The position numbers and the translations under genes are program-made. A DNA stretch of 64,000 nucleotides from Verrucomicrobiota bacterium. GTDB lineage: Bacteria; Verrucomicrobiota; Lentisphaeria; JABSQK01; JAJFLO01. The stretch spans positions 750 through 64,749 of the forward strand of contig JAJFLP010000075.1 of NCBI GenBank assembly GCA_021772635.1, in the 5' to 3' direction. The notes below the pieces were generated by a model. It did no database searches and was not told the DNA's origin. It worked only from the letters and a program-made list of their open reading frames with translations. This document shows positions 1 through 57,173 of this stretch, piece after piece (the first letter of the stretch is position 1; each line of letters begins with the position of its first letter).

Positions 1-230
1 TCTTCCAGTTCCAGCCGATCAAGGCTCCGAAAGGCCTTCCGCAAAAGCATATCGCTAACCCGAGCGAACCTGCTTGTCAAGGTTTCGAATGCATCGAACT
101 CTTCGTCGGTTAGATTCTCTAGATCCGTTATCACGGAACATTGTCCATAGGATCGATGCAACCATTTTTCACCTTCATCCAGTTTTGATAAAGAGTCGAC
201 TAATAAGGTAATGAATTCGCTCTGTGTCAT
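1..230 (-). CDS. HEPN-type (nucleotidyltransferase substrate-binding) toxin/partner, runs off the left edge
   Basis: Manual translation from ATG at 230: MTQSEFITLLVDSLSKLDEGEKWLHRSY...DAFETLTSRFARVSDMLLRKAFRSLDRLELE; its ATG overlaps the stop of the upstream MNT gene (ATGA coupling). Confidence 0.7.
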   Translation of the reverse strand, partial: MTQSEFITLLVDSLSKLDEGEKWLHRSYGQCSVITDLENLTDEEFDAFETLTSRFARVSDMLLRKAFRSLDRLELE

Positions 231-508
231 AATTTTATACCCTCCGACTCCGCAATTGATACTAACGCATTATTCTTATCACTAGGCAGGATGATGTCAA
301 TTTTTTGCGGCCCCAGTCGATCCATTAGCTTTAATTTGATAGATCTGCGTTCGTTTAGCCCAATTAACTTGGACTTAACGAGTAAATCGATATCGCCACC
401 ACGTTTATTGTCATCAACCCGGGAGCCGAAAAGAAAAACTTCTGCATCAGGATCAAAGCTGGAGATAGCTTCCGTAATAACGCCTTTTTGTTCCTGCGAT
501 AATCTCAT
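227..508 (-). CDS. Minimal nucleotidyltransferase (MNT) antitoxin
   Basis: 93 aa with FLFGSRV..GGDIDLLV (GS...DxD) motif. Confidence 0.85.
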   Translation of the reverse strand: MRLSQEQKGVITEAISSFDPDAEVFLFGSRVDDNKRGGDIDLLVKSKLIGLNERRSIKLKLMDRLGPQKIDIILPSDKNNALVSIAESEGIKL

Positions 509-553
509 GTTATTTGCCGGACAAGAATTAGTGTGAATAATAGAGTAGGTAGG

Positions 554-952
554 CTAGGGCGCTAATACAATTAATCCGGGAACATACTGAAAATGCTCGT
601 CATAAGACACGAGGCGGGCTCCTAACTCCAGAGTTGCCGCAGCAATCCAAATGTCATTTGTCGGGATTGGTGTGCCATTTGTCTTTAGCGAACGTACAAG
701 GATTCCATATCTCTCTGCGGTATCACGATCGACATCTACGATCCGAACACCTGTAAGTTTCAGAAATTCATTGAACTCAGCAACGTTTTTATCGAATTTA
801 GAGCCGAGTTGGAAACCTGCATAGAGTTCGCCAACCGCGACGGCCGGTAGAAACACTAAATCTGCCGTTTCAACCAGATTCGTAAGTTCACCTGGTTTAC
901 GAAATAATTTCGTATAACCGTTTGTATCAAGTACTAACCTCATTAGCGCCAA
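554..952 (-). CDS. vapC: PIN-domain VapC toxin
   Basis: LVLDTN, VGELY, PIPTNDIWIAA, LVSYDEHF acidic PIN motifs. Confidence 0.9.
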   Translation of the reverse strand: MALMRLVLDTNGYTKLFRKPGELTNLVETADLVFLPAVAVGELYAGFQLGSKFDKNVAEFNEFLKLTGVRIVDVDRDTAERYGILVRSLKTNGTPIPTNDIWIAAATLELGARLVSYDEHFQYVPGLIVLAP

Positions 953-1215
953 ATTTCCTCATCGATTACTTCGAATATTGCCATATTTCGTTCGAATTCC
1001 TTCTCATCGCTCCGGCTCCAGCGTCCTGCTAAAGAACTGAGATCTCGTTTAATACTTCCGGTTTCCTCAAGACCAAGCCCTTTCTCAAGTACTTTTATAA
1101 CAGTCTTATTAAGACTTTGCTGATTCTCGCCAGCCAATTTCCGCAGTCCATTCTCCACCGGAGCGGGGATCTTTCTTAATGTTAGTTGATTCATTTTATG
1201 CCTCCAATTTGACAT
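943..1215 (-). CDS. Ribbon-helix-helix antitoxin (FitA/VapB-like); likely start MNQLTLR
   Basis: QLTLRKIP..L..LA.....SLN pattern; overlaps vapC start. Confidence 0.75.
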   Translation of the reverse strand: MSNWRHKMNQLTLRKIPAPVENGLRKLAGENQQSLNKTVIKVLEKGLGLEETGSIKRDLSSLAGRWSRSDEKEFERNMAIFEVIDEEIWR

Positions 1216-1220
1216 TACTT

Positions 1221-1253
1221 ATTGCATTCAATGTAATCTTAATTGCATCAATG
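1221..1253. promoter_or_regulatory. Palindromic operator upstream of vapBC
   Basis: ATTGCATT-C-AATGTAAT at 1221-1237 plus a partial copy ATTGCATCAATG at 1242-1253. Confidence 0.5.
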
Positions 1254-1285
1254 TCAATTATACCGAACGTCTTCAGGTTTTAAAC

Positions 1286-1494
1286 CCGGCGTTCTGCTGG
1301 CTAGCCTGATCTATGCATAAAGTTTCTACTGCGAGCATGTATCAGGCCTAATATAAATGAGTTACAAAGAACGGACGACCTTGAAATATTTCAATATTTC
1401 TTCAGCCGTACAACCTTCGTAACTCATTGATCTCAGGCCAGCTACAAGCGCTCGTAACGAAATTGATGCATAGACCAGGCTAGCAGAATGCCGG
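1286..1494. repeat. ~210-bp foldback (nested inverted repeat) element
   Basis: Outer arms ...ctagcctgatctatgcat / atgcatagaccaggctag...; inner arms aatgagttacaaag / cttcgtaactcatt. Confidence 0.65.
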
Positions 1495-1779
1495 TAAAAA
1501 ATATTGTTTCCACCGCGGCGGATTTCGCTAGGCTCAACACAGATCTTAGGTGATCAGTAAAAGTTGTCTCTCTCCGCACCAGCGGAGTCTCGGTCATCCG
1601 GACCGCATTCTCGGAGTCCGCTTATGCGGAGAGTCCGTCCATACGGACCAAAAATTGTACTGCTTGCAGTATAAATTAGCAAGGGAATGTGATATGGCGG
1701 ATGGGGAGCGGGGAAGGCGTGACAGGATGGAAAATAGGACAATCGTATAAACAAGAAGCAGGTACAAATTAAATGCAGT

Positions 1780-2250
1780 CTAGGGACTAGGGGATGGTGC
1801 GCTTAAAGTGCCCGCGTTGAGTTTGTCCTCAAGAAAAGTAATATCATCAGCGTCTTTGTCCCGAGCCACCGTTCGTTTACACGCCAATAAATCCTCGCCA
1901 CAGTCACAGAAAACCTGAAGTTCATTCTCGTCCCTATGCGTGACGCGACGCTTCTCCGCTTCGTCGAACTCCGGTAGTCCGATCGGCGCCAAATGAAATT
2001 GCAGCACTCCCCAGTTCGTCTGATATGTCTGTACGAAATTCTGACCTTTCGGACCTAATCTTATAACGGGGATATCGATAACATCTTCGAGGACGCGATT
2101 GATTAAGGTAAGATTTTCGAGATCATTTCTGGGGATATAGAAGTCCCAATCCATCGTGAATCTCGGAAACCCTTCCAAACGTACTGCTTGTCCGCCTATC
2201 ACGAGGTATCGGACGTTATGCTGGTTAAAAAGGTCAATTACCGGCTCCAC
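1780..2250 (-). CDS. Nucleotidyltransferase (DUF6036-like), putative TA component
   Basis: YLVIGGQAV...RFTMDWDF (GG...DxD) and C-terminal K....RDKDADD motif. Confidence 0.75.
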   Translation of the reverse strand: MEPVIDLFNQHNVRYLVIGGQAVRLEGFPRFTMDWDFYIPRNDLENLTLINRVLEDVIDIPVIRLGPKGQNFVQTYQTNWGVLQFHLAPIGLPEFDEAEKRRVTHRDENELQVFCDCGEDLLACKRTVARDKDADDITFLEDKLNAGTLSAPSPSP

Positions 2251-2432
2251 TTAGCACCACCGGATCGAATTAATTTTTTAATAATCTGAGATTTCCACGC
2301 GTTCATCTCTGCATACGAATTGAACTTCTGCGGGCTGAATTTTGGGATATTCGTTATTTTGGGTAATGCGTAGACTTTTCCCTCCGAAGCCCAAATCTTT
2401 AATTTTGCCTGATAATCGTCGGATATCTTCAT
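2238..2432 (-). CDS. Small hypothetical partner protein (64 aa, MKISDD...)
   Basis: Overlaps the start of the NTase gene; internal ATG at 2432 within ORF 2238..2549. Confidence 0.55.
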   Translation of the reverse strand: MKISDDYQAKLKIWASEGKVYALPKITNIPKFSPQKFNSYAEMNAWKSQIIKKLIRSGGAKWSR

Positions 2433-2811
2433 ATTCAACTTCCTAACCCAATTGATTTGCTGTCGAAGGAACGGATTGCCTCTTCTAAAGTTAGCCGAAT
2501 TTAATTTGATCACAATCGCTTGTCCGAAAACAAAAATGAACGGATACACTGCAAGCAGTACAGTTTTTTGCCAGCTTTGAATTCGTTACTAAGGTTTATG
2601 TTGAGCCTAGCGAAATCCGCCGCGGTGGAAAAGATATTTCGGAAGCCCGATGGAAACAAAGGAGAAACATTGGGGTCGTACTCGTTTATTATATATAACT
2701 ACTTATAAATAAACATTTAATATTGAGTTTAAGACCGGAGATAACGTGTGGCTTGTCAAAGATTAGCCGTGGCAAATACGGAGCGGGAGAATTGGAAAGA
2801 CTAAAAGCAGA

Positions 2812-2940
2812 TTTTCACCATGAAGGACATGAAGGTCACGAAGAGAAAGACGAAACGATAAAAATTAACCGCGGAGGGCGCTAAGTACGCAGAGGGATAA
2901 AACTAGAAATGTACGTTTTTCACCATGAAGGACATGAAGG
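2812..2940 (+). repeat. Nonamer-type repeats with a 24-bp direct repeat
   Basis: ttttcaccatgaaggacatgaagg at 2812-2835 and 2917-2940, with accgcggagggcgctaagtacgcagag between them. Confidence 0.7.
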
Positions 2941-3157
2941 GAAAGAATCGGAAATACGGGAGGTGATTTTCTTATTTACTATTCCCTGCCTTCTCATCTT
3001 CGTGCGGAGCAGGGGACAGTCGTCGGGGAGCGGGGATGGTAGTAAGGAGATAATATAAACGGAAAGAAAATTGGCTCCGGTCCCGACCTCCGCAGGGAGT
3101 CGGGAGATTCGAATTCGCCGCGGCGAATTAACAGCCGCCTTTTAGGAGGATTAAAAA

Positions 3158-3232
3158 TGGCTCCGGCAGTTGGATTCGAACCAACGACCAAGTGGTTAAC
3201 AGCCACCTACTCTACCGCTGAGCTATGCCGGA
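3158..3232 (-). tRNA. tRNA-Asn(GTT)
   Basis: TCCGGCA..GCTCAGCGGTAGAGT..GGTGG-CTGTTAA-CCACT..GTTGG-TTCGAAT-CCAAC-TGCCGGA-GCCA cloverleaf, 75 nt with encoded CCA. Confidence 0.97.
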
Positions 3233-3308
3233 ACCTGAAATTCAGAATAAGATCGATTATTTTAATGGGCGCCGATGATAATGCAAACTCATCGCCCTAT
3301 AAATTCTT

Positions 3309-3800
3309 CTAATTTTCACGTGCAGACTTCAAGCAACTTAAGATTAATCCGTAGAAGCTGTTGCCGCTGCTATTTTGATAACACCACCCTAAGTGAGTAG
3401 CGCATCCGGCGCAGCACACAATCGTCCAGGAATACGCTGGAAACCATGTCCATTCTTCGGTTGCTTCGCCAAAGCCTTGAACACCGGTTGCGTTACTAAA
3501 ACAACCTATCTCATAATCGACACCTTCCGGATTGCTAAAGCTGTGCACGTGCTTGCCTGTTATAGCGGTTCGCTGCCTCTCGGAGGTAATGGCTTGACTG
3601 CAACTCACGCAGAGTAATTCGTTATCCTCCAATTCAACGTGATCTAAATCTTGTTCGCGAACCAGTACCCTGCGGCTTTTCCCATTGGCAGAGTCAAGAA
3701 AGACAGCAAGCCGTTGGATACTTAAAAGATGGGAGACTCGGAGACAATTGGCACACCTGGTTAACGGATGTCCCAGATCAGTTGAAAATGTGACTGTCAT
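3309..3800 (-). CDS. Cereblon-like (CULT/Yippee fold) protein; true start probably downstream of 3800
   Basis: Two CxxC (CVSC, CAGC), HSFSNPEG, EWTWFPAYSW and HLGWCY thalidomide-binding-domain motifs. Confidence 0.85.
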   Translation of the reverse strand: MTVTFSTDLGHPLTRCANCLRVSHLLSIQRLAVFLDSANGKSRRVLVREQDLDHVELEDNELLCVSCSQAITSERQRTAITGKHVHSFSNPEGVDYEIGCFSNATGVQGFGEATEEWTWFPAYSWTIVCCAGCATHLGWCYQNSSGNSFYGLILSCLKSAREN

Positions 3801-3931
3801 GACGGGTATATCAGAAAAAGGTGTGCATTTGTTGCGGTATCACTACCGAAAGTATTGGAGTCACTGAGCAAGGCAGTAGCAGCCGTATTGGCGTAAGGGA
3901 GTCGTGGAGTGGTGGGTTAAGGATGCGCACG

Positions 3932-4066
3932 TCAGCCGTCTTCGTATACGGTATTACTTTCTTTGAGAACTAAACTGTCAACCCAATCGCCAGAATTACG
4001 CTTTACTTCAAGCCGTTCTACCAACTTCAATAGGCCGTTTTCTATTTTATACTCCAGTTCTTCACG
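3932..4066 (-). pseudogene. 3' remnant of a four-helix-bundle (TIGR02436-like) gene
   Basis: Manual translation ELEYKIENGLLKLVERLEVKRNSGDWVDSLVLKESNTVYEDG*; no ATG and an in-frame stop upstream. Family resemblance from memory only. Confidence 0.5.
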
Positions 4067-4086
4067 ACCGCGTAAATCGCTTCAAT

Positions 4087-5325
4087 TTAGATCAACGCAT
4101 AAACACTCTCTTCCCCAGTTTTCACATCTATCAGCTTAATATTATCCAGTGATTCCTGTAACAACCCCGGAACATCCAGCAGTGCTTCCTCGTCGATAAT
4201 TCGTTTAAGTTTAGCACCGGTCGACGGGGACTTCGGAGCAAAGACGGTGCAGCTATCAGGACAGTTCTCCTCCGACACATATAATGTGTTTATACTTTTT
4301 GCTATCCGAATGGTCTCGAGTTTGTCCATACCGACCAGGGGGCGTAATATCAGCATATCGGTTGCCTTCCCGATGGTATCCATGTTTCTAATGGTCTGAC
4401 TCGCGACCTGACCGACGGCATCGCCGCTCACCAAGGCCTGCGCCCCCAGCGAATGCGCGACAGCCTCTGCGATTCGGATCATCATTCTACGGTAAAGGAT
4501 TGTCCGGAACTTCTCCGTACAATTGTCGCGAACTGCTTTTTGGACCGGGACCAAATTGCAGGCTAAGAACTTCCCAGGCCGCTGATATTGATTTAGTATC
4601 TGAATGATCCGCCCGACTTTTGAAATCGACTCGGCATTGGTATACGGATAACTGTGGAAGGTGAGAAAATTCAGCGGGCACCCCCGCTTCATAGTCAGAT
4701 AACAGGCAACCGGGGAGTCAATGCCGCCGGAAAGCAACGCCAGAGCCGGGCCGTTACAGCCGCTTGGAAGCCCACCGGGGCCCGGGGTGTGGTCATAAAA
4801 TATAAAACTCCAGTCGTCTCGCACTTCGACGCCTACAGTTAAGTCAGCATGATTCAAATCGACGGTCATATTTTGGTATTTTGCAAGGAGCTGTTCCGCG
4901 AAATGGATCTCTAGTGCATTGGAAGTAAGCGGGAAGTTCTTATCGCTACGGCGTGCGCGCATGCGATAGCGAATGGTGTCGCCGTCGCGGCAGGCGCTAT
5001 TAAAACGCTCGTACACATCCGGGAAGGTCGCCAGCACGCATTTCTCTATCTCCGGCAGGGTGGAATCAACGATGATCCCCGGCGAAAACGACGCGAGTCC
5101 AAAAACTTTCGGAAGCCTCGCCTGGATGATCGATAATTCATCCTGGGTTAAGACCTTAAAATTCGAAATATGTAGTACAACGCGCCCCCGTTCCTGAATT
5201 ATTTTTATCGAACCGAGTTCCTTTAGTGCATGTCTTATCCCTTCTATAAACAAGGCTTCGAAATATCGGCGATTACCGCCTTTCAACGCGATTTCGTTGT
5301 ACCGGCACATTACTGAGTTAAACAT
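4087..5325 (-). CDS. thiI: tRNA 4-thiouridine synthase ThiI (THUMP + PP-loop, no rhodanese domain)
   Basis: RYNEIALKGGNR, THUMP region, LLSGGIDSPVA, GQVASQT. Confidence 0.92.
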   Translation of the reverse strand: MFNSVMCRYNEIALKGGNRRYFEALFIEGIRHALKELGSIKIIQERGRVVLHISNFKVLTQDELSIIQARLPKVFGLASFSPGIIVDSTLPEIEKCVLATFPDVYERFNSACRDGDTIRYRMRARRSDKNFPLTSNALEIHFAEQLLAKYQNMTVDLNHADLTVGVEVRDDWSFIFYDHTPGPGGLPSGCNGPALALLSGGIDSPVACYLTMKRGCPLNFLTFHSYPYTNAESISKVGRIIQILNQYQRPGKFLACNLVPVQKAVRDNCTEKFRTILYRRMMIRIAEAVAHSLGAQALVSGDAVGQVASQTIRNMDTIGKATDMLILRPLVGMDKLETIRIAKSINTLYVSEENCPDSCTVFAPKSPSTGAKLKRIIDEEALLDVPGLLQESLDNIKLIDVKTGEESVYALI

Positions 5326-5353
5326 GGTTTTATGTCCGAGTTAAGTGATTTAT

Positions 5354-5571
5354 GTTGCGTGTTGCGTGTTGCGTGATTCGTATTACGTGTTGCGTGATTC
5401 GTATTGCGTGGTACGTGTTGCGTTTGGAATATTACGTATTTACTGATGAGCACAGCACTGTGGTAAGATGGATATGATCAGAGAATTTCTATTTTCCCTA
5501 CATTCAATATTTTCCTCGCAACACGTAACACGCATCACGTAACACGGAATACGCATCACGCAACACGTTTC
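5354..5571. repeat. Inverted pair of degenerate 7-mer tandem arrays (GTTGCGT-like / ACGCAAC-like), empty
   Basis: ~12 in-phase units at 5354-5437 and ~8 complementary units at 5516-5571; 78-bp spacer. Confidence 0.85.
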
Positions 5572-6202
5572 AATCCTTATGTATCATTGGGACGAACCTA
5601 ACAGGTAAGGTACTGGTCTCGATGATCTTACCATTAGTTTTGTGCAATAAGAGTAGTCGCTGGTCAGCAGTCCCTACCGGGACGACGATCCGCCCTCCAT
5701 CAGCTAATTGATCGATCAACTGCCGCGGTACTGACTCGGGTGCGCATGTGACAATGATCCCCTGATACGGACCCTCTTCAGACCAGCCGGCATACCCGTC
5801 ACCGGTCTTTATGTACACGTTGCTATAGTTAAGCTTTTCTAACACGTTGGCGGCATGATCAGCGAGTTGAGGGACAACTTCCACCGAGTACACATCGCGG
5901 CAAATGCACGCGAGAATTGCGGTTTGATAACCTGATCCCGTCCCAATCTCAAGTACCGTGTCGCTGGGTTCCAGTTTTAAGAGCTCAGTCATATATGCAA
6001 CAATAAACGGCTGCGAAATCGTCTGTCCAAACCCTATTTGAGTCGGGTGATCGCCGTAAACGGCAGCGTCCGATTCGGTTCCTCTTGGCATAAAAAAATG
6101 CCGGGGAACCGTTTCCATTGCCGCTAGAATAGCGGTGTTCTTGACACCGTATTCCCGCACCTGACGCACCATCCTGAGGCGCCTCTCGGTAAAATCAGCC
6201 AT
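5570..6202 (-). CDS. pcm: Protein-L-isoaspartate O-methyltransferase
   Basis: VPRHFF, GQTISQPFIVAYM, VLEIGTGSGYQTA; probable start MADFTERR at 6202 (ORF extension to 6418 runs through a repeat). Confidence 0.93.
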   Translation of the reverse strand: MADFTERRLRMVRQVREYGVKNTAILAAMETVPRHFFMPRGTESDAAVYGDHPTQIGFGQTISQPFIVAYMTELLKLEPSDTVLEIGTGSGYQTAILACICRDVYSVEVVPQLADHAANVLEKLNYSNVYIKTGDGYAGWSEEGPYQGIIVTCAPESVPRQLIDQLADGGRIVVPVGTADQRLLLLHKTNGKIIETSTLPVRFVPMIHKD

Positions 6203-6378: not shown

Positions 6379-6419
6379 CGACGGCGATCATGTTATCATA
6401 AGAAGATATAAGATGCAAT

Positions 6420-6511
6420 TATACTAACTCCAGTCAGGTTTTCGACAAGTTCTCTAAAATCTTTGCCTACGGTCACAAGAGATCGTCGAAAATTCGACTG
6501 CTTGCAGTCTA
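6420..6511 (+). mobile_element. 92-bp MITE-like element, family A (diverged)
   Basis: tatact...caggttttcga...gaaaattcGACTGCTTGCAGTCta; same length as the copies at 19713 and 38943. Confidence 0.55.
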
Positions 6512-6652
6512 GTTAACACTTCAACCGAAAGTATATTAGTCCCGCAAAACGCTCGACGGTTTCGATTCAGATTTCAACAGCCTATTGGTCACCCCATCGC
6601 ATCATGTTCAAGGTTTATACCAACAATCACGGAGTAGCGTAGAATTATCGGA

Positions 6653-10226: not shown

Positions 10227-10469
10227 ATGCCTAGTATAACCGTAAAAAATATACCTGATAAAGTATATGCAGATCTAAAGGAATCCGCAGCAGCCAATCA
10301 TCGGAGTATTAATAGCCAAATAATTGTGTGCTTAGAGCAAGCGTTTTGCTGCCGTAAAGTTGATGTCGAACGCGTAATACGCGACGCACGGGAAATTCGA
10401 GAGCACACGAGGCGCTGCGCAATTTCCGATGAGGAAATTAATGAAGCGAAGAACTACGGACGACCATGA
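10227..10469 (+). CDS. FitA/Arc-like RHH antitoxin
   Basis: MPSITVKNIPD..Y..LK..AAANHRSIN. Confidence 0.85.
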   Translation: MPSITVKNIPDKVYADLKESAAANHRSINSQIIVCLEQAFCCRKVDVERVIRDAREIREHTRRCAISDEEINEAKNYGRP

Positions 10470-10873
10470 TCGTCGTTGATACCAACGTAATCGTATATTT
10501 CTACTTAGAAAGCGACATGTCGATCCATGCTGAGTCTGCATACCGAAAGGATCCGAATTGGAGCGCACCAGCGCTTTGGCGCAGTGAGTTTAGAAACGTT
10601 CTCTCTATTTGTTTACGAAATCGTCGAATGCCGCGGGCTGCTGCTCAGACAATTGTTGATAGAGCGGAGACGCTGATGCAGAACCATGACTTCCAAATCC
10701 CGTCGGCGAAAGTCTTAAGTTTAGTTGCTAACAGCAAATGCTCTGCATACGATTGTGAGTTTGTGGCGTTGGCCCGGGATTTAAGGGTCCCGCTGGTGAC
10801 AGTTGATAAATTAATCCTTCGGGAGTTTTCAAAAGTAGCAATTAATTTAGTGGATTTCGTCAACGATAATTAA
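10466..10873 (+). CDS. vapC: PIN-domain VapC toxin
   Basis: MIVVDTNV, SEFRNVL, SAYDCEFVALA, LVTVD; 4-bp overlap with the antitoxin. Confidence 0.9.
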   Translation: MIVVDTNVIVYFYLESDMSIHAESAYRKDPNWSAPALWRSEFRNVLSICLRNRRMPRAAAQTIVDRAETLMQNHDFQIPSAKVLSLVANSKCSAYDCEFVALARDLRVPLVTVDKLILREFSKVAINLVDFVNDN

Positions 10874-17996: not shown

Positions 17997-18150
17997 TCGA
18001 AATCGAAATCGAAATCGAAATCGGGATCGTTCCTCCTTGTTCCTTGGCTATAAGCAACTGACTCGCACGAAAACTAAACAACGATTCGTCGTCGCCAAGG
18101 CTATGTCGCAACAGGTTTTCGATAGCGATTTCGATTTCGACTCCGATTGG
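17997..18150. repeat. Inverted pair of 6-mer arrays (ATCGAA / TTCGAT)
   Basis: cgaaatcgaaatcgaaatcgaaatcggg and ttcgatagcgatttcgatttcgactccgat. Confidence 0.75.
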
Positions 18151-19536: not shown

Positions 19537-19712
19537 GAGACATCCTTACTATGTTAGAGGCTTAAGGTTTCCGCCGTCGCTCAAACTAATACTCGTAGTT
19601 AAGGCGAGACAGGCACGGGTCACGGTTCCGGGGTTAAGTTAAAAAGCTGAGAAGCTTGTCTTCACGCGGTTTCGTAATAATTTAGGCACATCCATCTGGA
19701 TCTGGCGTTTAG

Positions 19713-19804
19713 TATACCGAACGTCTTCAGGTTTTCGAATTATCGTCCGGCATCCTATACGTGGATATTTCAAGTCGTCCAAGAATTGTACCGCTTGCGG
19801 TATA
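19713..19804 (+). mobile_element. 92-bp MITE-like element, family A
   Basis: TATACC...GGTATA ends with internal TACCGC-TT-GCGGTA hairpin; homologous to 38943-39034 (minus). Confidence 0.75.
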
Positions 19805-19891
19805 GTATACCCTTGAATAATTGGATAATATACTGATCGCCTTGGAGTTTTCGACCCGTAGTTCTGCTGTCAAGCAGAACTGCGAGGTTTA

Positions 19892-19992
19892 TATGCCGAA
19901 CGTCTTCATCCCGCATACGGGACGAAATATTGTTCGATATCCCTTGGGTAATGGATTCAAAGTCGGCCGAAAATTGTACTGCTTGCAGTATA
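19892..19992 (+). mobile_element. Family A element, second nearby copy
   Basis: gccgaacgtcttc...aagtcggccgaaaattgTACTGCTTGCAGTAta. Confidence 0.6.
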
Positions 19993-20080
19993 AATATCGT
20001 TCGGAATCTCTTCCTTAATAAATAAAAGTCAATATAAGTTTGACTGCCTGCAGTCTAACATAATAATTCGTACTTTTCTA

Positions 20081-27058: not shown

Positions 27059-27245
27059 TACGCCCACACCTGCGGTGGCTTTCGATATAGACAGCAAGCA
27101 GTGGAATTTTCGAGGATCTCTTGTCACGGCAGGCAAAGATTTTGAAAAACTTGTCGACGTGAGTCGCGCTCTATAACGTCGCGCACGCGAAAACCTGACT
27201 GGAGTTGGTATAACAGAGGGGCAGTTCAGCATCTCTCGAATGTCC

Positions 27246-28964: not shown

Positions 28965-30230
28965 TCAAGCAAGATCACCATCCTTATACAGTTTAGCGAG
29001 GGTACAGTCTTCTTCACGGTTCAGAAAATTCGGGTGTTCTTCACCCACTACGACTTGTGTGCCGAGGTGTTCATCGTTGGAAAAAACAAGAATATCCCGT
29101 GGATTTGCCAAGTCTATTGTTTGTGGAGAATGCGTAACCATGATTACCTGACCGTAGTGAATCGAATGAAGTGTACGAACTACCAGCTCCAGATTCAGCG
29201 GGTGTAAATTATTTTCAGGGTGCTCGATTACACAAATGGGTTGATGCTCGGGGATATAGGCAAGGCTCGTCAATACCAGTAAACGCAATATCCCTTCCGA
29301 AAGTACCCCGGATGGCAACTCTAAACCGTCGGCGTACCGAAACCGGAAGTTCAGGTGGCTATCCTCATCTTGTTTTTCGATGATGATATCCTCCAGATCC
29401 GGCACTGCAGTTTGTACGACCATCAACCAGTCTTTGTATTTGTCCGGCGCGTCGACCTTAAGGCGTTGAAGGGCGGCTGGCAGCGATGCGCCGTATTCCA
29501 TAGAAAGACATTCTTCGCCGAACCGACTTAACTGGCGCATCGTCGAGCTGTCGAGTTTGAATTGAAATAGTTTGTTCGTCAAGCGCTCTACAAACCAGCT
29601 GGACACCGGAAAATCTCTCTCATTCTCGACGATGTAGCTTAGAATCGTTTTGTGAGGATTTCGTGTCGGTGGAAGCAAATAGTCATCCGCAAGCAGCGCG
29701 TTGCTGTCGCCAAAGTGTTGCTCAGTATAAATACGGAGCTCCGGATCACAGTAATCGGAGATCAAGTTTTTATGTATATAAACGTGATTCTCAATAAACA
29801 ATGTCTCCGGAATCTCCCGTACACCAAACTCGATATCGCTTTCAACCAGGCCGCCACGATCTATCAGGGTTAATTGTTCATTTAAGATCTGCACGTCCGT
29901 CCTATCCGGATCAAGGCCGATCGCAATTTCGTAGCGAACTGTATCATAGTTAGGTGATTTTTCAGGGGTCTGAAGATCTTCTGGAATCCGCGATTCCACG
30001 GCCAGTTCGAAGGAATCGGTCTGCTGCCGCCAGATTAAGTCATGAAAATATTCAGTGCGCTCCCCAATGGCCGTTGCTAAGTCGGCCGACATGGTTCTGC
30101 CGAGAATTGACAGGATATCAAGGAAATTGGATTTGCCGCTGGCATTGGCACCGATCAGAATTTGAAAAGGTTTGAGAGGTTGTTTGATATAGCGGATGCT
30201 GCGGAAATTAAGTGCCTCAATTGAAGTTAT
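28965..30230 (-). CDS. ABC/AAA_21-type ATPase resembling the MADS defence ATPase MAD3
   Basis: MITSIEALNFR, GANASGKS, LSEGILRLL, VIEHPENNLHP, VTHSP; likely start MITSIE. Confidence 0.7.
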   Translation of the reverse strand: MTSIEALNFRSIRYIKQPLKPFQILIGANASGKSNFLDILSILGRTMSADLATAIGERTEYFHDLIWRQQTDSFELAVESRIPEDLQTPEKSPNYDTVRYEIAIGLDPDRTDVQILNEQLTLIDRGGLVESDIEFGVREIPETLFIENHVYIHKNLISDYCDPELRIYTEQHFGDSNALLADDYLLPPTRNPHKTILSYIVENERDFPVSSWFVERLTNKLFQFKLDSSTMRQLSRFGEECLSMEYGASLPAALQRLKVDAPDKYKDWLMVVQTAVPDLEDIIIEKQDEDSHLNFRFRYADGLELPSGVLSEGILRLLVLTSLAYIPEHQPICVIEHPENNLHPLNLELVVRTLHSIHYGQVIMVTHSPQTIDLANPRDILVFSNDEHLGTQVVVGEEHPNFLNREEDCTLAKLYKDGDLA

Positions 30231-30359
30231 CATTTTTCTACTCCATCCTATTATTGTAACGCATTGCAGCTTCACTTCCGGGCGACGTTGAAATTATATA
30301 ACTCGCGTGTTAGATTCAGCCCCCAATCTAGTGTAGCGTCCCACAAAGCGAACATTCCG

Positions 30360-30582: not shown

Positions 30583-32232
30583 ATGATTAAAACATCCCAA
30601 ACCAATTTAAGCAGTTGCGCTGCCTGGTGGGAACCGAACGGATCGCTCCCCTCCACCTCCGACAAGGTTTTGCGCGAGAGGCTACTTACGATTAATGAAC
30701 CTGTTGTCATCGTTGAAGACGGCGGTAGCCAGTCGCTAGCATCGGGAGGCGTCACTCGATTGGGAGAAACCGTTGTGAAGGAAAAGGGGTTCCCGATCGT
30801 CGGGTACGCGCATCCAATTGCTCCGGGACTTCTTGGCGATCCATCGTTCTGCAGGGATTATGGACTTAGATACCCATACGTTTCGGGCGCAATGGCGAAC
30901 GGGATTGGATCTGCTGACATCGTCGAGGAAATGGGGAACGCAGGTATGCTCGGTTTCTTCGGCGCCGCAGGATTGCCCCTCGGCTTGATAGAAACGGCGA
31001 TAGATCGAATTACAAAATCATTGGAGGACAAACCGTACGGCTTCAATCTAATCCACAGCCCTAATGAGCCGGAACTTGAAAACGCCATAGTCGCCTTATA
31101 TCTCGACCGAGGCGTTCGGCTGGTTGAAGCCTCGGCTTATCTCGGCCTCACACTTCCGGTGATCCGCTATCGCGTTTCCGGAATCCACCAGGATTCAACT
31201 GGCAGGATAGTGACACCGAATCGGATCATCGCGAAGGTCTCACGAATCGAAGTCGCTTCGAAATTCCTGGCGCCCCCTCCTGAGCCAATGTTAAACCAAC
31301 TCGTCGCAGCCGGCGATATCACCCTGGACCAGGCGCGGCTCGCATCGAAGATACCCGTGGCGCAGGACATAACCGTCGAGGCCGATTCCGGCGGGCATAC
31401 CGACAATCAGCAGGCAGTGACCTTGCTGCCGACAATGACTGCGCTTCGCGATCGCCTTCAAGCGGAACATAACTATGAGGTCCAGCTCAGGGTTGGGGCT
31501 GGAGGAGGCGTGGCGACTCCAGCATCTGCGGCCGCATTTTTCTCTATGGGCGCTGCGTATATTGTGACTGGAACGATCAATCAGTGCTCAATAGAAGCGG
31601 GTACATCTGATACAGTCCGCGAGATGCTGGCACAGGCGCAGCAGGCGGATATAACCATGGCCCCGGCTGCGGACATGTTCGAAATGGGCGTCCAGGTCCA
31701 GGTTCTCAAGCGTGGTACGATGTTTGCAATGCGAGGCGCCCGGCTGTATGATATTTACCGGTCTTGCGATGGTCTTGACAGTATACCTCTTGCAGAGCGA
31801 TCGGTTCTCGAGAAGACAATTTTTCGGGCGCCGCTTGAAACAATATGGGAGCAAACGAAGGCCTTTTTTCAAGATCGTGATCCGGCTCAGGTCACAAGAG
31901 CGGAGTCCGATAAAAAACACCGAATGGCACTGGTTTTTCGGTGGTATCTCGGACAATCATCGAACTGGGCGAACACAGGCGAGCCATCAAGAAAAATTGA
32001 CTACCAAATTTGGTGTGGCCCCGCAATGGGCGCTTTTAACGAATGGGTCAAGGGGACCTTCCTCGAGGATTACCAGAACCGGAAAGTCGCCACCATCGCG
32101 TTCAATATACTATACGGAACGGCCGTGCAACTGCGCCTGAATTCACTTAAGAACCAGGGCGTTTCGATTTCGGGCGGTACTTGTACGATTCAGCCGCGGC
32201 CAGTCGCAGAGATTAAGGAATACTTCGAGTGA
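30583..32232 (+). CDS. pfaD: PUFA synthase enoyl reductase PfaD
   Basis: SGAMANGI, EASAY, EADSGGHTDN, DMFEMG, DYQIWCGPAMGAFN; likely start MIKTSQ at 30583. Confidence 0.95.
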   Translation: MIKTSQTNLSSCAAWWEPNGSLPSTSDKVLRERLLTINEPVVIVEDGGSQSLASGGVTRLGETVVKEKGFPIVGYAHPIAPGLLGDPSFCRDYGLRYPYVSGAMANGIGSADIVEEMGNAGMLGFFGAAGLPLGLIETAIDRITKSLEDKPYGFNLIHSPNEPELENAIVALYLDRGVRLVEASAYLGLTLPVIRYRVSGIHQDSTGRIVTPNRIIAKVSRIEVASKFLAPPPEPMLNQLVAAGDITLDQARLASKIPVAQDITVEADSGGHTDNQQAVTLLPTMTALRDRLQAEHNYEVQLRVGAGGGVATPASAAAFFSMGAAYIVTGTINQCSIEAGTSDTVREMLAQAQQADITMAPAADMFEMGVQVQVLKRGTMFAMRGARLYDIYRSCDGLDSIPLAERSVLEKTIFRAPLETIWEQTKAFFQDRDPAQVTRAESDKKHRMALVFRWYLGQSSNWANTGEPSRKIDYQIWCGPAMGAFNEWVKGTFLEDYQNRKVATIAFNILYGTAVQLRLNSLKNQGVSISGGTCTIQPRPVAEIKEYFE

Positions 32233-35200
32233 CAGAGTCAGACTCAGAGACAATTGTGAAAAAGAAAATGATTCGCCCGACCCCGATCGCGATCGTCGGA
32301 ATGGGTTGCATGTTCCCGAAAGCCAACGATCCGGAAGTGTATTGGGCGAATATAAACAACTGCGTCGATGGCATTACAGGAATTCCGGAAACCCACTGGC
32401 GTCCCGAGGACTATTATAACGCAGATCCCGCGGCACGGGATCAAACATATGCGAAGCGCGGCGGGTTCATTGAACCGATTCAATTTAACCCAATGGAATA
32501 CGGCATTTCCCCTCGCGACCTGGAAGCGATCGACACGACGCAGCTTCTCGGACTGGTCGTCGCCAAACAAGCACTTAAAGATGCGGGATACGATGAAGAT
32601 AGCGATTTCGACCGAAGCAGAACCAGCGTCATACTAGGGGTAACCGGCGCTCTCGAACTCGTTGTTACCCTATCTGCACGTTTAGGACACCCGAACTGGC
32701 GTAACGCGTTGAAAGACGCCGGTGTTGACCCGCAATTGGCGGCGGATGTGATGGCAAGGATTTCAGACTCGTACGTCGATTGGCAGGAGAACTCGTTCCC
32801 TGGATTACTCGGAAACGTCGTTGCCGGCCGCATTGCGAACCGGCTGAACTTGGGCGGGACGAATTGTGTGGTTGATGCTGCCTGCGCAAGCTCTCTGACA
32901 GCGATGCACTTAGCGAGCCTTGAACTGTCATCCGGCCGCAATGATATCGTCGTAACCGGCGGTATGGATACGTTCAATGATATCTTCATGTACATGTGTT
33001 TCAGTAAAACCCCCGCACTTTCGCCAACGGGTGATTCTAAGCCGTTCGACCATGAAGCCGACGGCACAATTCTGGGCGAAGGTATCGGCGTTGTAGTGCT
33101 GAAGCGTCTTGAGGATGCGCAACGTGATAACGATAGAATATACTCCGTAATTCGGGGTGTAGGCTCCTCAAGCGACGGAAAAGGCGACGCGGTTTACGCG
33201 CCGAGCAGTGAGGGCCAAACTCGCGCCCTTCGCCAAGCCTACGAACTTGCGGACATTTCCCCTGACACGATTGAACTTGTCGAAGCGCATGGCACCGGGA
33301 CCAAGGTGGGAGATGCAATCGAAGCTCGTGCGCTTTCGGACTTGTACAGAGAATCAGGACGCGCCGATACATGGTGTGCATTAGGATCAGTGAAGTCACA
33401 GATCGGGCACACGAAAGCGGCCGCCGGCATTGCGGGCCTGATAAAAGCTTCACTGGCGCTTTACCATAAAGTTCTTCCGCCCACAATGAAAGTAACGCGA
33501 CCGCTGGAGGTCGTTCAAGGGAACGGCTCGCCTTTCTACCTGAATACGACTAAACGCCCCTGGATGCCGTCCATAGAACACCCGCGTCGCGCGGGAGTGA
33601 GTTCCTTCGGGTTCGGTGGAAGTAATTTTCACTGCGTGCTCGAAGAAGCGGACGATCGGAAACCGTGTGTTGATTGGGATGGAGAAATCCAACTTCTCGT
33701 TTTTACCGGCGATAGCCGCGCGGAAATATCCGGTAAACTTGATAATTGGCTTGGGTACGATGAGCCGTGGCGCGCGTTCAGGCATAAAGCTGCTGAGAGT
33801 CGGCGTGCCTATGACGGCGATGATAACTGTCGCCTTATATTCGTCGTTCAGAAAGGGGCGTCAAACCTTGCGAAATCGATAGGACAAGCAAAGAAGATCC
33901 TTGATGACAATAGTTCAGGAGAGCACTGGAGCACCCCGGATGGGGTCTACTTCGGCACTGGCGTCAGTGATGGGCAAATAGGCGTACTCTTCCCCGGGCA
34001 GGGATCGCAGTATGTCGGCATGTTTCGCGATCTCGCGTGTCACTTCCCGCAAATGCAAGAAGCGCTTGCGGCCGCTAACGCAGTCTTTTCCGAGCACGAA
34101 GCAGCCCAGTCTGGCAAACGATTAACAGATATCATTTTCCCGTTTCCGGAATTTGACGATGACGAGATAACGAAGAACGAGTCTGCACTGCGTGATACCC
34201 GCGTCGCTCAGCCGGCAATCGGTGCGGTCTGTATGGGACTGTTCTCTATACTTCAGGACTTTGGACTTAAACCCCATACTGTCGCGGGACACAGTTACGG
34301 GGAACTACCCGCGCTGTGCGCGTCCGGAAGATTCGGGGCAACCACTCTACACGCGCTATCGAACCTGCGCGGACAGCTAATGGCGGCGAAACACAGTTAC
34401 AAGGGAACGATGCTCGCGGTGAAGGCCTCCGGCGATCAGGTATTGAAATTAATAAAATCAGCGGGCCTCGACCTTGTGGTCGCCAACAAAAATGGACCCG
34501 AGCAAATCGTGCTTTCCGGCGCAGAGAAAGTGATCGACAAAGCAGCGGGACTATTTTCCCAGATGGGAATCGGCCATAAGCTTCTAAAGGTATCATCTGC
34601 ATTCCACAGTGCGTGGGTTTCACATGCCCGCGAGCCATTCTCAGACGCACTTCAGAAAATTAAATTTTCCGCGGCCAAAATACCTGTCTACGCAAATAGC
34701 ACCGCGCAACCGTACCCGAATCGAGCCTCACAGATTCGAGAACTTCTTGCCGGACAACTAGCACGACCGGTCGAGTTCATGGATCAGATCACCAATATGT
34801 ATGGTGCTGGAGTTCGCACGTTTGTTGAGGTTGGCCCGGGATATGGATTAACAGGACTGGTCTCGTCAATACTGAAGGGTAAGGATTTTACCGCTTTTGC
34901 AACTGATTCGTCAGCTGGCAAGCGCTCTGGATTCGTGGATCTCGGACGAACGCTTGCGCATTTGGCGTCCTTGGGAATTCCGGTGCAGTTAGATAAATGG
35001 GACAACATTGCGTTGCCTGACGACATCGGGACGAAACCAGGATTTGCTGTTTCCCTATGTGGCGCGAACTACGTAAATAAAGCAAGCCAGGCGAAAGAAG
35101 AACCCTTTGCAAAGTCATCCGCTGCAGCTCTAATGCTCACTGCCGATCCAACGAGACAGAGTGCCTCTGAAATTGCGGACAGACAAACATCGAATCCCAA

Positions 35201-38930: not shown

Positions 38931-38942
38931 AAAGATCAAAGT

Positions 38943-39034
38943 GATACCGCAAGCGGTACAATTTTTGGCCGACTTCAAACTATCACGCACGAGATGTCGA
39001 ACGATATTTCGAAAACCCGAAGGCGTTTGGTATA
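38943..39034 (-). mobile_element. 92-bp family A element between pfaA and pfaBC
   Basis: Reverse complement tataccaaacgccttcgggttttcgaaatatcg...aaaattgTACCGCTTGCGGTAtc. Confidence 0.75.
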
Positions 39035-39151
39035 ATATCGATAGTTTCTTGCAACATATAAATCCTGCTGTATACCCGTAAGCAGGCGCGCCAGGTGGTT
39101 CCCTTCTGAATAAGAACACCGACACACACACAACTTCAGGCATCTAAATAA

Positions 39152-56734: not shown

Positions 56735-56865
56735 TCTTAGGTCTTCCTGGTAAACTATTTATTTTCTTGTGGCTTTTCTATCGAATGGATAGTTCAGACG
56801 GGCAACCGCGTACAGGGTTGTTACTCTAGGTTATTTCACATTATCATCGATTATACTGCATGCAG

Positions 56866-56901
56866 TATAAAATGTGGGTTAAAAACGAAACCCACTGGTG
56901 G
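56866..56901 (+). repeat. Family B right end fused to a family A hairpin
   Basis: TACTGCATGCAGTA (56854-56867) followed by taaaatgtgggttaaaaacgaaacccactggtggg. Confidence 0.7.
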
Positions 56902-56963
56902 GCTCCTCTACAAGAAGTATTCAAAACGTTACTGGAAAAATCATAACTCTGCATAATACTAAC

Positions 56964-57098: not shown

Positions 57099-57173
57099 AT
57101 TAGGCTATTCGATTATATTTCACGAGCAGTAAACCGAGCAAAATTCCAGTAGTAAAATAACTTTGGTCAAACT

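What the first reader, a model, noticed from the sequence alone, without database searches (positions are those of the whole stretch)
1507..2631. Two-gene NTase module enclosed by perfect 33-bp inverted repeats, without a transposase
The arms at 1507-1539 and 2599-2631 are exact reverse complements, extend imperfectly on both sides, and contain a CCRCCGCGGYGG palindrome. They enclose 1.06 kb holding only a DUF6036-like nucleotidyltransferase and its 64-aa coupled partner. This looks like a non-autonomous cargo element (a REP doublet or MITE that captured a TA-like pair) or an invertible segment.
Basis: partly seen in the sequence, partly recalled or inferred. Interest (0 to 1): 0.7.

Follow-up and report, generated by a model that had tools for sequence, protein, structure and literature searches.

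The report
Toxin-antitoxin pair flanked by dispersed repeats
A small toxin-antitoxin-like gene pair lies between two oppositely oriented copies of a short repeat that is scattered through this genome's intergenic DNA; the two copies share an identical 33-base patch, but nothing shows that the block moves as a unit, so it is a mildly curious and largely ordinary arrangement.

Summary
1507-1539 and 2599-2631 are exact reverse complements (0 expected by chance). They enclose 1,059 nt holding only a 156-aa nucleotidyltransferase and an overlapping 64-aa upstream gene.

The arms are not transposon ends. Each lies inside one copy of a ~105-nt dispersed intergenic repeat: at least 8 full copies in the 64-kb window, and a diverged copy in another Lentisphaerales genome. 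The two flanking copies point towards each other. Outside the 33-mer they are only 62% identical, no closer than any two family members. The 33-mer is therefore a 25-31-nt extra patch sitting at the same internal position in both copies.

No target-site duplication, transposase, recombinase or further copy was found. None of 61 related gene pairs with enough flanking DNA has flanking inverted repeats.

The gene pair is a conserved module (the partner is present in 78 of 80 related loci). Its enzyme has a MenT1-like fold and an intact catalytic motif.

Best reading: a chromosomal MenAT1-like toxin-antitoxin operon bracketed by two inverted MITE/REP-like repeats, with a short patch copied between them or inserted into both. 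A mobile cargo element, an invertible switch or a functional site are not excluded, but nothing here supports them.

The parts
1507..1539 (+). Left copy of the perfect 33-mer. It is a 25-31-nt extra patch plus a few family-derived bases, and contains the imperfect 14-nt palindrome TCCACCGCGGCGGA.
2599..2631 (-). Right copy of the perfect 33-mer, the exact reverse complement of 1507-1539.
1253..1677 (+). LEFT copy of the ~105-nt dispersed intergenic repeat. Its family-homologous pieces are 1253-1284, 1499-1569 and 1649-1677; two secondary insertions interrupt them.
   Evidence: nhmmer family profile E 6e-16 and 1e-4; alignments
1285..1494 (.). 210-nt palindromic MITE-like element inserted into the LEFT copy and flanked by the 4-nt direct repeat TAAA (1281-1284 and 1495-1498). 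No other copy in the window.
   Evidence: I1; z -7.9
1570..1648 (.). Insertion of about 76 nt made of small hairpins (TCCGC-N4-GCGGA type) in the LEFT copy. A related 35-nt insertion sits at the same position in the family copy at 63184-63316.
1650..1673 (+). Conserved dyad motif AAAAATTGTACTGCTTGCAGTATA at the inner end of the LEFT copy. It forms the inner inverted repeat with 2545-2568.
2542..2698 (-). RIGHT copy of the dispersed repeat, in the opposite orientation. It carries its own 29-nt insertion at about 2654-2682.
   Evidence: nhmmer E 1.3e-21; alignments
2545..2568 (-). Conserved dyad motif at the inner end of the RIGHT copy.
1780..2250 (-). 156-aa nucleotidyltransferase, the putative toxin. 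It has a MenT1/TM1012-like fold, and the motif IGG-x13-DWD is invariant in homologues.
2238..2432 (-). 64-aa partner, the putative antitoxin. It overlaps the enzyme gene by 13 nt, is predicted to form two helices, and matches no known family.
554..1215 (-). Neighbouring vapBC pair: a PIN toxin at 554-952 and a FitA-like RHH antitoxin at 943-1215. A sigma-70-like site lies at 1284-1257, on the outer end of the LEFT copy.
1..508 (-). Neighbouring MNT nucleotidyltransferase (227-508) and the start of a HepT-like partner gene that runs off the window.
3158..3232 (-). tRNA-Asn(GTT). The toxin-antitoxin islet lies downstream of its 3' end.

Best explanation
The locus is a chromosomal two-gene toxin-antitoxin-like operon, not a transposon. 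The genes are a 64-aa putative antitoxin and a 156-aa MenT1-like nucleotidyltransferase, the putative toxin. They sit in a small toxin-antitoxin islet downstream of tRNA-Asn, alongside MNT/HepT-like and VapBC pairs. The operon is bracketed by two oppositely oriented copies of a ~105-nt dispersed intergenic repeat of MITE/REP-like (Correia/ERIC-like) type that is scattered through this genome. The perfect 33-bp inverted repeat is a short extra patch of 25-31 nt that sits at the same internal position in just these two copies.

Shown here: the arms belong to the family; the two copies are otherwise as diverged as any two members; the gene pair does not need the arms.

Inferred: the patch was copied from one copy to its inverted neighbour 1 kb away by a homology-guided event (short-tract gene conversion or template switching between inverted repeats). 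A close alternative is listed as a rival: a small secondary insertion into both copies. Also inferred, from the enzyme's fold and motif: the enzyme would block growth by nucleotidylating a cellular target such as tRNA 3' ends, as MenT toxins do, and the small partner would bind and inhibit it.
For: Family membership. The inner motif TTGTACTGCTTGCAGTATA recurs at about 10 sites in the window. A family profile finds 8 full copies, at 1253-1677, 2542-2698, 6417-6515, 19707-19807, 19887-19995, 27085-27216, 38940-39038 and 63184-63316, plus fragments. The 5' end motif TATACCRAACGYCTTC has 10 matches against 1.6 expected. A diverged copy occurs in another Lentisphaerales MAG. The dyad motif keeps its pairing through compensatory changes at 2 positions, with 93.8% of cells paired.

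The patch. LEFT and RIGHT share 95 of 133 aligned positions. Taking out the 33-mer leaves 62 of 100, against 63-73% between other subfamily members and 55-64% for RIGHT against them. The 6 other copies lack the segment.

A second pair of neighbouring inverted family pieces (59374-59397 / 63190-63213, 96% over 24 nt) also share a variant. This suggests that neighbouring copies exchange or duplicate sequence.

The arms are not part of the module. Among 61 metagenomic loci with at least 200 nt on each side, the longest exact flanking inverted repeat is 8-14 nt, against 33 here. In L010 the pair is packed between housekeeping genes with 37-nt and 29-nt spacers.

The module. The partner is encoded just upstream in 78 of 80 loci. 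G19, G20, D34 and D36 are invariant. The AF2 model has pLDDT 91. Foldseek gives TM1012 (E 1e-5) and MenT1 (TM 0.71-0.72). MenA1 is a 68-aa antitoxin encoded upstream of menT1 and lacks a DNA-binding domain (PMC10435456).
Against: The rest of the source genome could not be searched, so it is unknown whether the 33-mer or the whole block has other copies. The window's own contig is not searchable in the collections, since its arms were not returned. No close relative exists (the best ThiI homologue is 61% identical), so no empty-site comparison was possible. A copying event between repeats 1 kb apart with only 2-10 nt of flanking identity is unproven. The alignment at the patch boundaries is ambiguous (25 or 31 nt). 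Perfect conservation of 33 nt within 62%-identical flanks is also what selection on a functional site would give. Toxicity of the enzyme and neutralisation by the partner are untested, and the protein does not match the MenT Pfam family (DUF1814) by sequence.
Confidence: 0.5

Rival explanations
1. The 25-31-nt patch is itself a small REP-like mobile insertion. It contains the imperfect palindrome TCCACCGCGGCGGA. It entered the same target position (after GAAATATYKTT) of two different family copies independently, and their inverted orientation is a coincidence of how the host copies lie.
For: The boundary between perfect identity and diverged flanks is sharp and coincides with the indel. Family copies have clearly been targets of other small hairpin insertions at recurrent positions: 76 nt in LEFT and 35 nt in the 63184 copy at the same site, 33 nt in the 27085 copy, 14 nt in the 19887 copy, and the 210-nt element with a TAAA duplication. 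The patch has the same orientation relative to its host copy in both arms.
Against: The window holds only these two copies, 1 kb apart, and none in the other 6 full family copies that have the same target sequence. The 22-nt core is absent from the genome, metagenome and viral collections. The pattern TCCGC-N4-GCGGA is not enriched in the window (4 found against 2.9 expected). No RAYT or IS200/IS605-type gene was seen in 37 ORFs scanned.
Confidence: 0.2
2. The block is, or once was, a non-autonomous composite mobile element. Two inverted MITE-like copies, with their TATACC-type ends outermost (about 1256 and 2698), mobilise the toxin-antitoxin pair in trans. This resembles a mobile insertion cassette or a MITE-flanked composite.
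For: The geometry fits. The stronger terminal motif TATACCRAACG is outermost on both sides. A 42-nt mini-palindrome at 59358-59399 is built from two such termini, which suggests they act as terminal inverted repeats. Toxin-antitoxin pairs are common passengers (general knowledge). Transposase-less cassettes with inverted-repeat ends are known (for example PMC5444012).
Against: No target-site duplication beyond trivial TA/ATAT strings that are part of the family sequence. The two copies are 62% identical outside the patch, and both are interrupted by secondary insertions, so they are old and decayed. There is no second copy of the block anywhere searched. No cognate transposase is in the window. 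The 61 related gene pairs lack arms. GC content of the module (0.458) matches its surroundings (0.44).
Confidence: 0.12
3. The two 33-mers are a functional pair of cis-sites kept identical by selection. They could be operators bound by a regulator (with DNA looping around the operon), or the two halves of a long-range RNA stem that encloses the toxin-antitoxin mRNA and makes it a substrate for a double-strand-specific RNase.
For: A perfect 33-nt run within flanks that are 62% identical is very unlikely under uniform drift (about 0.62^33, roughly 1e-7; inference). The right site lies 167-199 nt upstream of the start codon of the 64-aa gene. The left site lies 241-273 nt downstream of the enzyme's stop codon.
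Against: The partner has no recognisable DNA-binding fold: two helices, pLDDT 69, and its closest analogue MenA1 lacks one. None of the 61 related modules has such sites. The 33-mer has no notable self-structure (z about 0). No sigma-70-like site was found upstream of the right arm on the coding strand, so it is not known that a transcript spans both arms.
Confidence: 0.1
4. The 1,059-nt segment is an invertible DNA switch flipped by a site-specific recombinase acting on the 33-bp repeats.
For: A perfect inverted repeat of about 30 bp flanking about 1 kb is the usual geometry of invertons (general knowledge).
Against: No recombinase or invertase domain was found in 37 ORFs scanned across the window. 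Inversion would carry the whole operon and its upstream region together, which gives no obvious on/off logic. The only independent assembly (Logan SRR15505516) is fragmentary, and its contig covers 1649-2624 in the same arrangement.
Confidence: 0.05

Closest known systems
MenAT1 (Rv0078B/Rv0078A) nucleotidyltransferase toxin-antitoxin system of Mycobacterium tuberculosis
   Same: A very small protein (64 aa here, 68 aa for MenA1) is encoded immediately upstream of a compact nucleotidyltransferase. The predicted fold superposes on MenT1 (TM 0.71-0.72). The catalytic motif hGG-x13-DhDh is intact. The partner is predicted to be two helices joined by a loop, with no DNA-binding domain (compare PMC10435456).
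   Different: Only about 20% identity. There is no hit to the DUF1814/AbiEii family, only a sub-threshold DUF6036 hit. The partner shows no detectable sequence similarity to anything named. Activity, target and toxicity are untested.
TM1012 (PDB 2ewr/2fcl), putative nucleotidyltransferase of Thermotoga maritima, and Pfam DUF6036
   Same: Best structural match (E 1e-5, same length, TM 0.68), and the only Pfam family hit (E 2e-4).
   Different: 14% identity. The Pfam score of 21.7 bits is below the gathering cut-off of 23.6. The function of TM1012 is itself unknown.
Mobile insertion cassettes and MITE-flanked composites (transposase-less segments bounded by IS-type inverted repeats and carrying passenger genes)
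   Same: An inverted-repeat-bounded segment of about 1.1-1.4 kb with two passenger genes and no transposase.
   Different: No target-site duplication, a single copy, arms that are old diverged members of a dispersed repeat, and no cognate IS identified.
REPINs (REP doublets forming hairpins; Bertels and Rainey 2011, PMC3116915)
   Same: Two inverted copies of a short repeat that contains an imperfect palindrome. The host family's dyad motif shows compensatory changes, as REP hairpins do.
   Different: REPINs are about 70-110 bp units present in tens to hundreds of copies. Here the copies are 1,059 nt apart with genes between them, the 33-mer has two copies in 64 kb, and no RAYT gene was seen.
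Correia/ERIC-type dispersed intergenic repeats (about 100-150 nt, short terminal inverted repeats, intergenic; recalled from general knowledge, not tested)
   Same: The host family is about 105 nt, intergenic, occurs in both orientations and in tandem, has TATAC...GTATA ends, is a target of nested insertions, and has at least 8 full copies in 64 kb.
   Different: Copies are only 47-84% identical, the terminal repeats are weak (about 7 of 11), no target duplication was shown, and there is no sequence relation to those families.

Membership tests
Non-autonomous transposable element with cargo (MIC / cargo MITE) | Terminal inverted repeats | tested here: met
   33 nt exact and 51 nt at 90%. However, these repeats are internal to larger repeat copies rather than terminal.
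Non-autonomous transposable element with cargo (MIC / cargo MITE) | Target-site duplication directly outside the repeats | tested here: not met
   The only candidates are ATATT (1501-1505 / 2634-2638), which is part of the palindromic family sequence GAAATAT, and TATA strings at the outer ends.
Non-autonomous transposable element with cargo (MIC / cargo MITE) | Further copies or presence/absence polymorphism | tested here: not met
   Two copies of the 33-mer in the window. The 22-nt core is absent from the genome, metagenome and viral collections, and there is no plasmid match. The rest of the source genome could not be tested.
Non-autonomous transposable element with cargo (MIC / cargo MITE) | A cognate autonomous element with the same ends | not testable with these tools
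   No transposase domain in 37 ORFs of the window. The remainder of the genome is unavailable.
REP / REPIN | Short imperfect palindrome present in many copies per genome | tested here: inconclusive
   The palindrome TCCACCGCGGCGGA is present, but there are only 2 copies in 64 kb, and the generic pattern is not enriched (4 found against 2.9 expected).
REP / REPIN | Inverted doublet with a short spacer (unit of about 70-110 bp) | tested here: not met
   The spacer is 1,059 nt and contains two genes. REPIN sizes are from PMC3116915.
Invertible DNA switch | Nearby site-specific recombinase | tested here: not met
   None among the 37 ORFs scanned across the window.
Invertible DNA switch | Both orientations present in reads | not testable with these tools
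   Only assembled Logan contigs were available, and they break within or near the arms.
MenT/MenA-type nucleotidyltransferase toxin-antitoxin system | Nucleotidyltransferase fold with an intact hG[GS]-x9-13-Dh[DE]h motif | tested here: met
   IGG-x13-DWD, with G19, G20, D34 and D36 invariant in 49 sequences. Foldseek match to MenT1 at TM 0.71-0.72.
MenT/MenA-type nucleotidyltransferase toxin-antitoxin system | Sequence membership in DUF1814/AbiEii (PF08843) | tested here: not met
   No hit at E <= 0.1; only DUF6036 at E 2e-4, below its cut-off.
MenT/MenA-type nucleotidyltransferase toxin-antitoxin system | Conserved adjacent antitoxin gene | tested here: met
   A partner of 64-70 aa overlaps the enzyme gene in 78 of 80 loci. 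The other 2 loci are cut off upstream of the enzyme gene.
MenT/MenA-type nucleotidyltransferase toxin-antitoxin system | Toxicity of the enzyme and neutralisation by the partner | not testable with these tools
   Needs expression and rescue assays.
Dispersed intergenic repeat (MITE / Correia / ERIC-like): the host family of the arms | Many similar copies in intergenic DNA, in both orientations | tested here: met
   8 full copies plus fragments in 64 kb, and the terminal motif occurs 10 times against 1.6 expected.
Dispersed intergenic repeat (MITE / Correia / ERIC-like): the host family of the arms | Terminal inverted repeats and target duplication | tested here: inconclusive
   The ends TATACCGAACG and TATACTGCAAG match at about 7 of 11. 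A mini-palindrome made of two 5' ends lies at 59358-59399. No target duplication beyond TA was seen.

The most novel reading that the evidence does not exclude
The two arms are a working pair. Either they are the ends of a composite, transposase-less cassette in which two inverted MITE-like repeats carry a MenT-like toxin-antitoxin module around the genome. Or they are a selected pair of sites (a DNA loop or a long-range RNA stem) that gates expression of the toxin operon, which would explain why 33 nt stay perfect while the rest of both repeats has drifted to 62% identity.
Probability: 0.12. Interest if true: 0.6.

Novelty: new member of a known kind. Interest (0 to 1): 0.3.

Why it matters
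There are three modest points.

(1) The gene pair belongs to a large, uncharacterised family: 189 word-index hits, and 275 metagenomic stretches that encode a relative. The family is a DUF6036-like nucleotidyltransferase coupled to a strictly conserved 64-aa partner. Its fold links it to MenT1-type tRNA-modifying toxins, which makes it a cheap and well-defined candidate for a toxicity/rescue assay and a tRNA 3'-end assay.

(2) The window shows a previously undescribed ~105-nt dispersed intergenic repeat in an uncultured Lentisphaerota-like lineage. The repeat carries nested secondary insertions, and neighbouring inverted copies share private variants. This is useful material for studying how such repeats evolve.

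(3) It is a cautionary case for scans. A perfect inverted repeat around a gene pair can arise from two old dispersed repeats plus a short shared patch, without being a transposon or an inverton.

Tried and rejected
1. Abundant REP. The 33-mer has only 2 copies in the window. Its 22-nt core has 0 hits in the genome, metagenome and viral collections.

2. Known RNA. Rfam finds only tRNA-Asn in 1-6000.

3. Known plasmid or mobile DNA. No blastn match of 1250-2700 in PLSDB.

4. Arms as a feature of the gene family. Rejected with 5 loci and then 61 loci.

5. The dyad motif as an intrinsic terminator (hairpin plus T-run on the opposite strand). The position fits at 3 sites: after the enzyme gene, after the gene ending at 38930, and in L018. 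But the RNA hairpin is weak (-5 to -7 kcal/mol, z about 0), the scan finds no terminator, and most copies have no gene to terminate. Kept only as a weak possibility.

6. The motif as a sigma-70 or sigma-54 promoter. The hexamer spacing does not fit (by inspection of the sequences).

7. Integron attC reading of the hairpins. No R'/R'' core sites, and the spacing is wrong (by inspection of the sequence).

8. Direct repeat 1703-1717 / 3025-3039 as att sites. Local alignment score 25, against a shuffle mean of 20 and maximum of 30, so not significant.

9. Empty-site comparison through ThiI relatives. The closest is 61% identical, which is too distant.

10. Searching for the arms as spurious small ORFs in 1.84 billion representative proteins. 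Only unrelated repetitive proteins were returned.

11. Logan contigs of SRR15505516. They are fragmentary and break at 1328, 1649 and 2624, so they say nothing about orientation.
Full report
OBSERVATION. The sequence is as described. 1507-1539 on the + strand and 2599-2631 on the - strand are the same 33-mer, TTTCCACCGCGGCGGATTTCGCTAGGCTCAACA. Even with 3 mismatches allowed the window holds only these two copies, and 100 shuffles give none. The repeat extends imperfectly to 1499-1549 / 2589-2639 (51 nt, 90%). The CCRCCGCGGYGG palindrome is there, but on its own it is not beyond chance. The 1,059 nt between the arms contain two ORFs on the - strand, 2238-2432 (64 aa) and 1780-2250 (156 aa), overlapping by 13 nt. 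There is a second, inner inverted repeat at 1650-1673 / 2545-2568. There is a 76-nt hairpin-rich insertion in the left arm only, at 1570-1648. A 210-nt palindromic element abuts the left arm (1285-1494). Both arms have relatives elsewhere in the window.

THE GENES. The 156-aa protein hits only Pfam DUF6036, below threshold (E 2e-4), and nothing in NCBIfam or PADLOC. It has many homologues at 55-64% identity and nothing closer. G19, G20, D34 and D36 are invariant, forming the nucleotidyltransferase motif IGG-x13-DWD. An AlphaFold model built on 49 sequences is confident (pLDDT 91). Its best PDB matches are the putative nucleotidyltransferase TM1012 (E 1e-5), the M. tuberculosis toxin MenT1 alone and in the MenAT1 complex (TM 0.71-0.72, 20% identity), then LnuA, ANT(2'')-Ia and MenT3.

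The 64-aa protein matches no family. It is about 50% identical to the small ORF upstream of the enzyme gene in every related locus examined, and it is present in 78 of 80 metagenomic loci; the other two are cut off upstream of the enzyme gene. It is predicted as two helices joined by a long loop, at modest confidence. [quoted passage not shown] So the pair works most like MenAT1. It is not a sequence member of the MenT family (DUF1814), and its activity is untested.

The neighbours on the same strand are a vapBC pair (554-1215) and an MNT nucleotidyltransferase with a HepT-like partner (1-508 and beyond). tRNA-Asn lies at 3158-3232. The rest of the window is core chromosome: ThiI, PCMT, MetRS, GlnRS/GluRS, shikimate and prephenate dehydrogenases and others. 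No transposase or recombinase domain was found in 37 ORFs scanned. ThiI relatives are Lentisphaeria/Victivallales-like, and the closest is only 61% identical. The organism therefore has no close sequenced relative.

WHAT THE ARMS ARE. The inner motif TTGTACTGCTTGCAGTATA recurs at about 10 places in the window. When these sites are lined up, about 85 nt upstream are also homologous. The consensus unit is TATACCGAACGYCTTCRGGTTTTCGAAATATCGTTCGAYATC - variable centre - GATAGTTTCAAAGTCGGCCAAAAA - TTGTACYGCTTGCRGTATA. A profile built from these copies finds 8 full copies: 1253-1284 plus 1499-1677 (+), 2542-2698 (-), 6417-6515 (+), 19707-19807 (+), 19887-19995 (+), 27085-27216 (-), 38940-39038 (-) and 63184-63316 (+). 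It also finds several fragments. The 5' terminal motif occurs 10 times against 1.6 expected.

The copies are intergenic, lie in both orientations relative to neighbouring genes, and are once in tandem (19707-20059). Pairwise identity is 47-84%. The terminal dyad keeps its symmetry through compensatory changes at two positions, with 93.8% of cells paired. No other part of the unit has a conserved fold. A degenerate scan of reference genomes returned two hits in one uncultured Lentisphaerales MAG. One of them is a near-full diverged unit, so the family is lineage-wide and old.

The family looks like a MITE/REP-type dispersed repeat: TATAC...GTATA ends, a 42-nt mini-palindrome made of two 5' ends at 59358-59399, and nested secondary insertions. 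I could not show target duplications or a transposase for it. Reading the dyad as an intrinsic terminator fits three sites by position, but the RNA hairpin is weak and the terminator scan is negative. I do not rely on that reading.

Both arms are full members of this family and point towards each other. The LEFT copy is interrupted by the 210-nt palindromic element, which carries a TAAA duplication, and by the 76-nt hairpin cluster. The RIGHT copy has its own 29-nt insertion at about 2654-2682.

WHAT THE 33-MER IS. In the family alignment, LEFT and RIGHT carry an extra segment in the variable centre that the other six copies lack. It is 25 nt or 31 nt long, depending on how the ambiguous boundary is aligned. 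The perfect 33-mer is this segment plus a few family-derived bases. Outside it the two copies match at 62 of 100 aligned positions. That is no better than RIGHT against other members (55-64%), and lower than LEFT against them (68-72%). Mismatches begin at the first base beyond the 33-mer on the inner side (1540) and at the two bases beyond it on the outer side (1505-1506).

The two copies are therefore not recent duplicates of one another, and uniform drift cannot leave 33 perfect bases (about 0.62^33; inference). Three processes could give this pattern: homology-guided copying of a short patch between the two neighbouring inverted copies; independent insertion of a small element into the same position of both; or selection on a functional site. 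A second pair of neighbouring inverted family fragments (59374-59397 / 63190-63213, 96%) also share a private variant. This mildly favours local exchange. I cannot separate the three without the rest of the genome.

There is no target-site duplication. The only flanking direct strings are ATATT, which is part of the palindromic family sequence, and TATA runs. The 22-nt core of the 33-mer is absent from the reference-genome, metagenome and viral collections, and the block has no plasmid match. The window's own contig is not searchable there, so these scans say nothing about the remainder of the source genome.

The gene pair occurs without arms. Five loci were inspected. In 61 metagenomic loci with at least 200 nt on each side, the longest exact flanking inverted repeat is 8-14 nt, against 33 here. 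In one genome the pair is wedged between housekeeping genes with spacers of about 30 nt (L010). The only independent assembly of this organism (Logan SRR15505516) is fragmentary. One contig covers 1649-2624 and is collinear with the window, and it ends inside the right arm. The module's GC content (0.458) matches its surroundings.

MECHANISM. The most likely reading is a resident MenAT1-like toxin-antitoxin operon. In that model the 64-aa protein binds and blocks the nucleotidyltransferase; when freed, the enzyme would nucleotidylate a cellular target such as tRNA 3' ends. This is inferred from fold, motif and gene order only. The operon lies between two old, oppositely oriented copies of a dispersed intergenic repeat. 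The LEFT copy is simply the spacer between this operon and vapBC, and its outer end carries the best sigma-70-like site in front of vapB (TTTAAA-16-TATAAT, 1284-1257). The perfect 33-bp repeat is a by-product: a short shared patch. The rivals (mini-insertion, decayed composite cassette, functional site pair, inverton) are ranked in the report sections, each with the result that would decide it.

COMPARISON AND VERDICT. The arrangement resembles mobile insertion cassettes and REPINs in outline but fails their defining tests: no target duplication, no copy number, wrong spacing, and no cognate enzyme. The gene pair resembles MenAT1 in fold and architecture but is not a sequence member. Novelty is that of a new member of known kinds. 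Interest is low to moderate (0.3). It lies mainly in the uncharacterised but widespread nucleotidyltransferase/64-aa module and in the undescribed repeat family.

Noticed in passing
window 1285-1494: A 210-nt near-perfect palindromic element (DNA fold z -7.9 for 1280-1700) flanked by the 4-nt direct repeat TAAA. It is inserted at the GGTTTT|CGAAA hot spot of the LEFT family copy and looks like a true MITE insertion. No other copy in the window.
   Followed up: partly
window 1570-1648 and 63254-63290: Clusters of small hairpins (TCCGC-N4-GCGGA type) are inserted at the same position of two family copies. The Logan contig L001 from SRR15505516 starts exactly at 1649, the end of the insertion, which could reflect a presence/absence polymorphism.
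   Followed up: partly
window 3067-3166: A 14-nt near-duplicate of the tRNA-Asn 3' end (AAAATTGGCTCCGG at 3067-3080, AAAAATGGCTCCGG at 3153-3166) lies 86 nt from it. An 18-nt perfect palindrome, AATTCGCCGCGGCGAATT, sits at 3112-3129 between them. This may be a remnant att site of an integrated islet, or a tRNA terminator.
   Followed up: no
window 2812-2842 and 2917-2947: A direct repeat, TTTTCACCATGAAGGACATGAAGG, lies inside two tiny His/Glu-rich ORFs (…FHHEGHEGHEE… and MYVFHHEGHEGKE…) between the right arm and tRNA-Asn. Meaning unknown.
   Followed up: no
window 5353-5568: Inverted arrays of heptamer-like repeats (GTGTTGC / GTGATTC / GTATTAC) form arms of 40-50 nt at 84-90% with about 100 nt between them, in the thiI-pcm intergenic region.
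   Followed up: no
window 17997-18148: Inverted arrays of TCGAAA repeats (arms of 24-29 nt, 85-92%, about 95 nt apart).
   Followed up: no
window 59358-59399 and 63190-63213: A 42-nt mini-palindrome is built from two 5' termini of the dispersed repeat. One arm is 96% complementary to the 5' end of the full copy at 63184, and together they bracket a three-gene cluster on the - strand (an ABC transporter and neighbours).
   Followed up: partly
window 19707-20059: Two full family copies and one partial copy of the ~105-nt repeat lie in direct tandem, upstream of the prephenate dehydrogenase gene (20081).
   Followed up: partly
window 56851-56869 and 56959-57103: A perfectly palindromic variant of the family dyad (TTATACTGCATGCAGTATAA) stands alone. 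Next to it is a separate 25-nt, 96% inverted repeat with a 95-nt loop.
   Followed up: no
window 10466-10873; 28965-30275; 32229-46009: There is a second PIN-domain gene, an AAA_21/AAA_15 ATPase (OLD/AbiEii-associated type), and two giant ORFs of 2,233 and 2,285 aa that I did not annotate.
   Followed up: no
L018 1669-1746 and L020 866-961 (uncultured Lentisphaerales MAG CAZTTH01): The motif AAAATTCGACTGCTTGCAGTCTA is identical to that of the window copy at 6493, although the genomes share no other DNA similarity. Either the dyad is under strong constraint or it spreads between lineages.
   Followed up: partly
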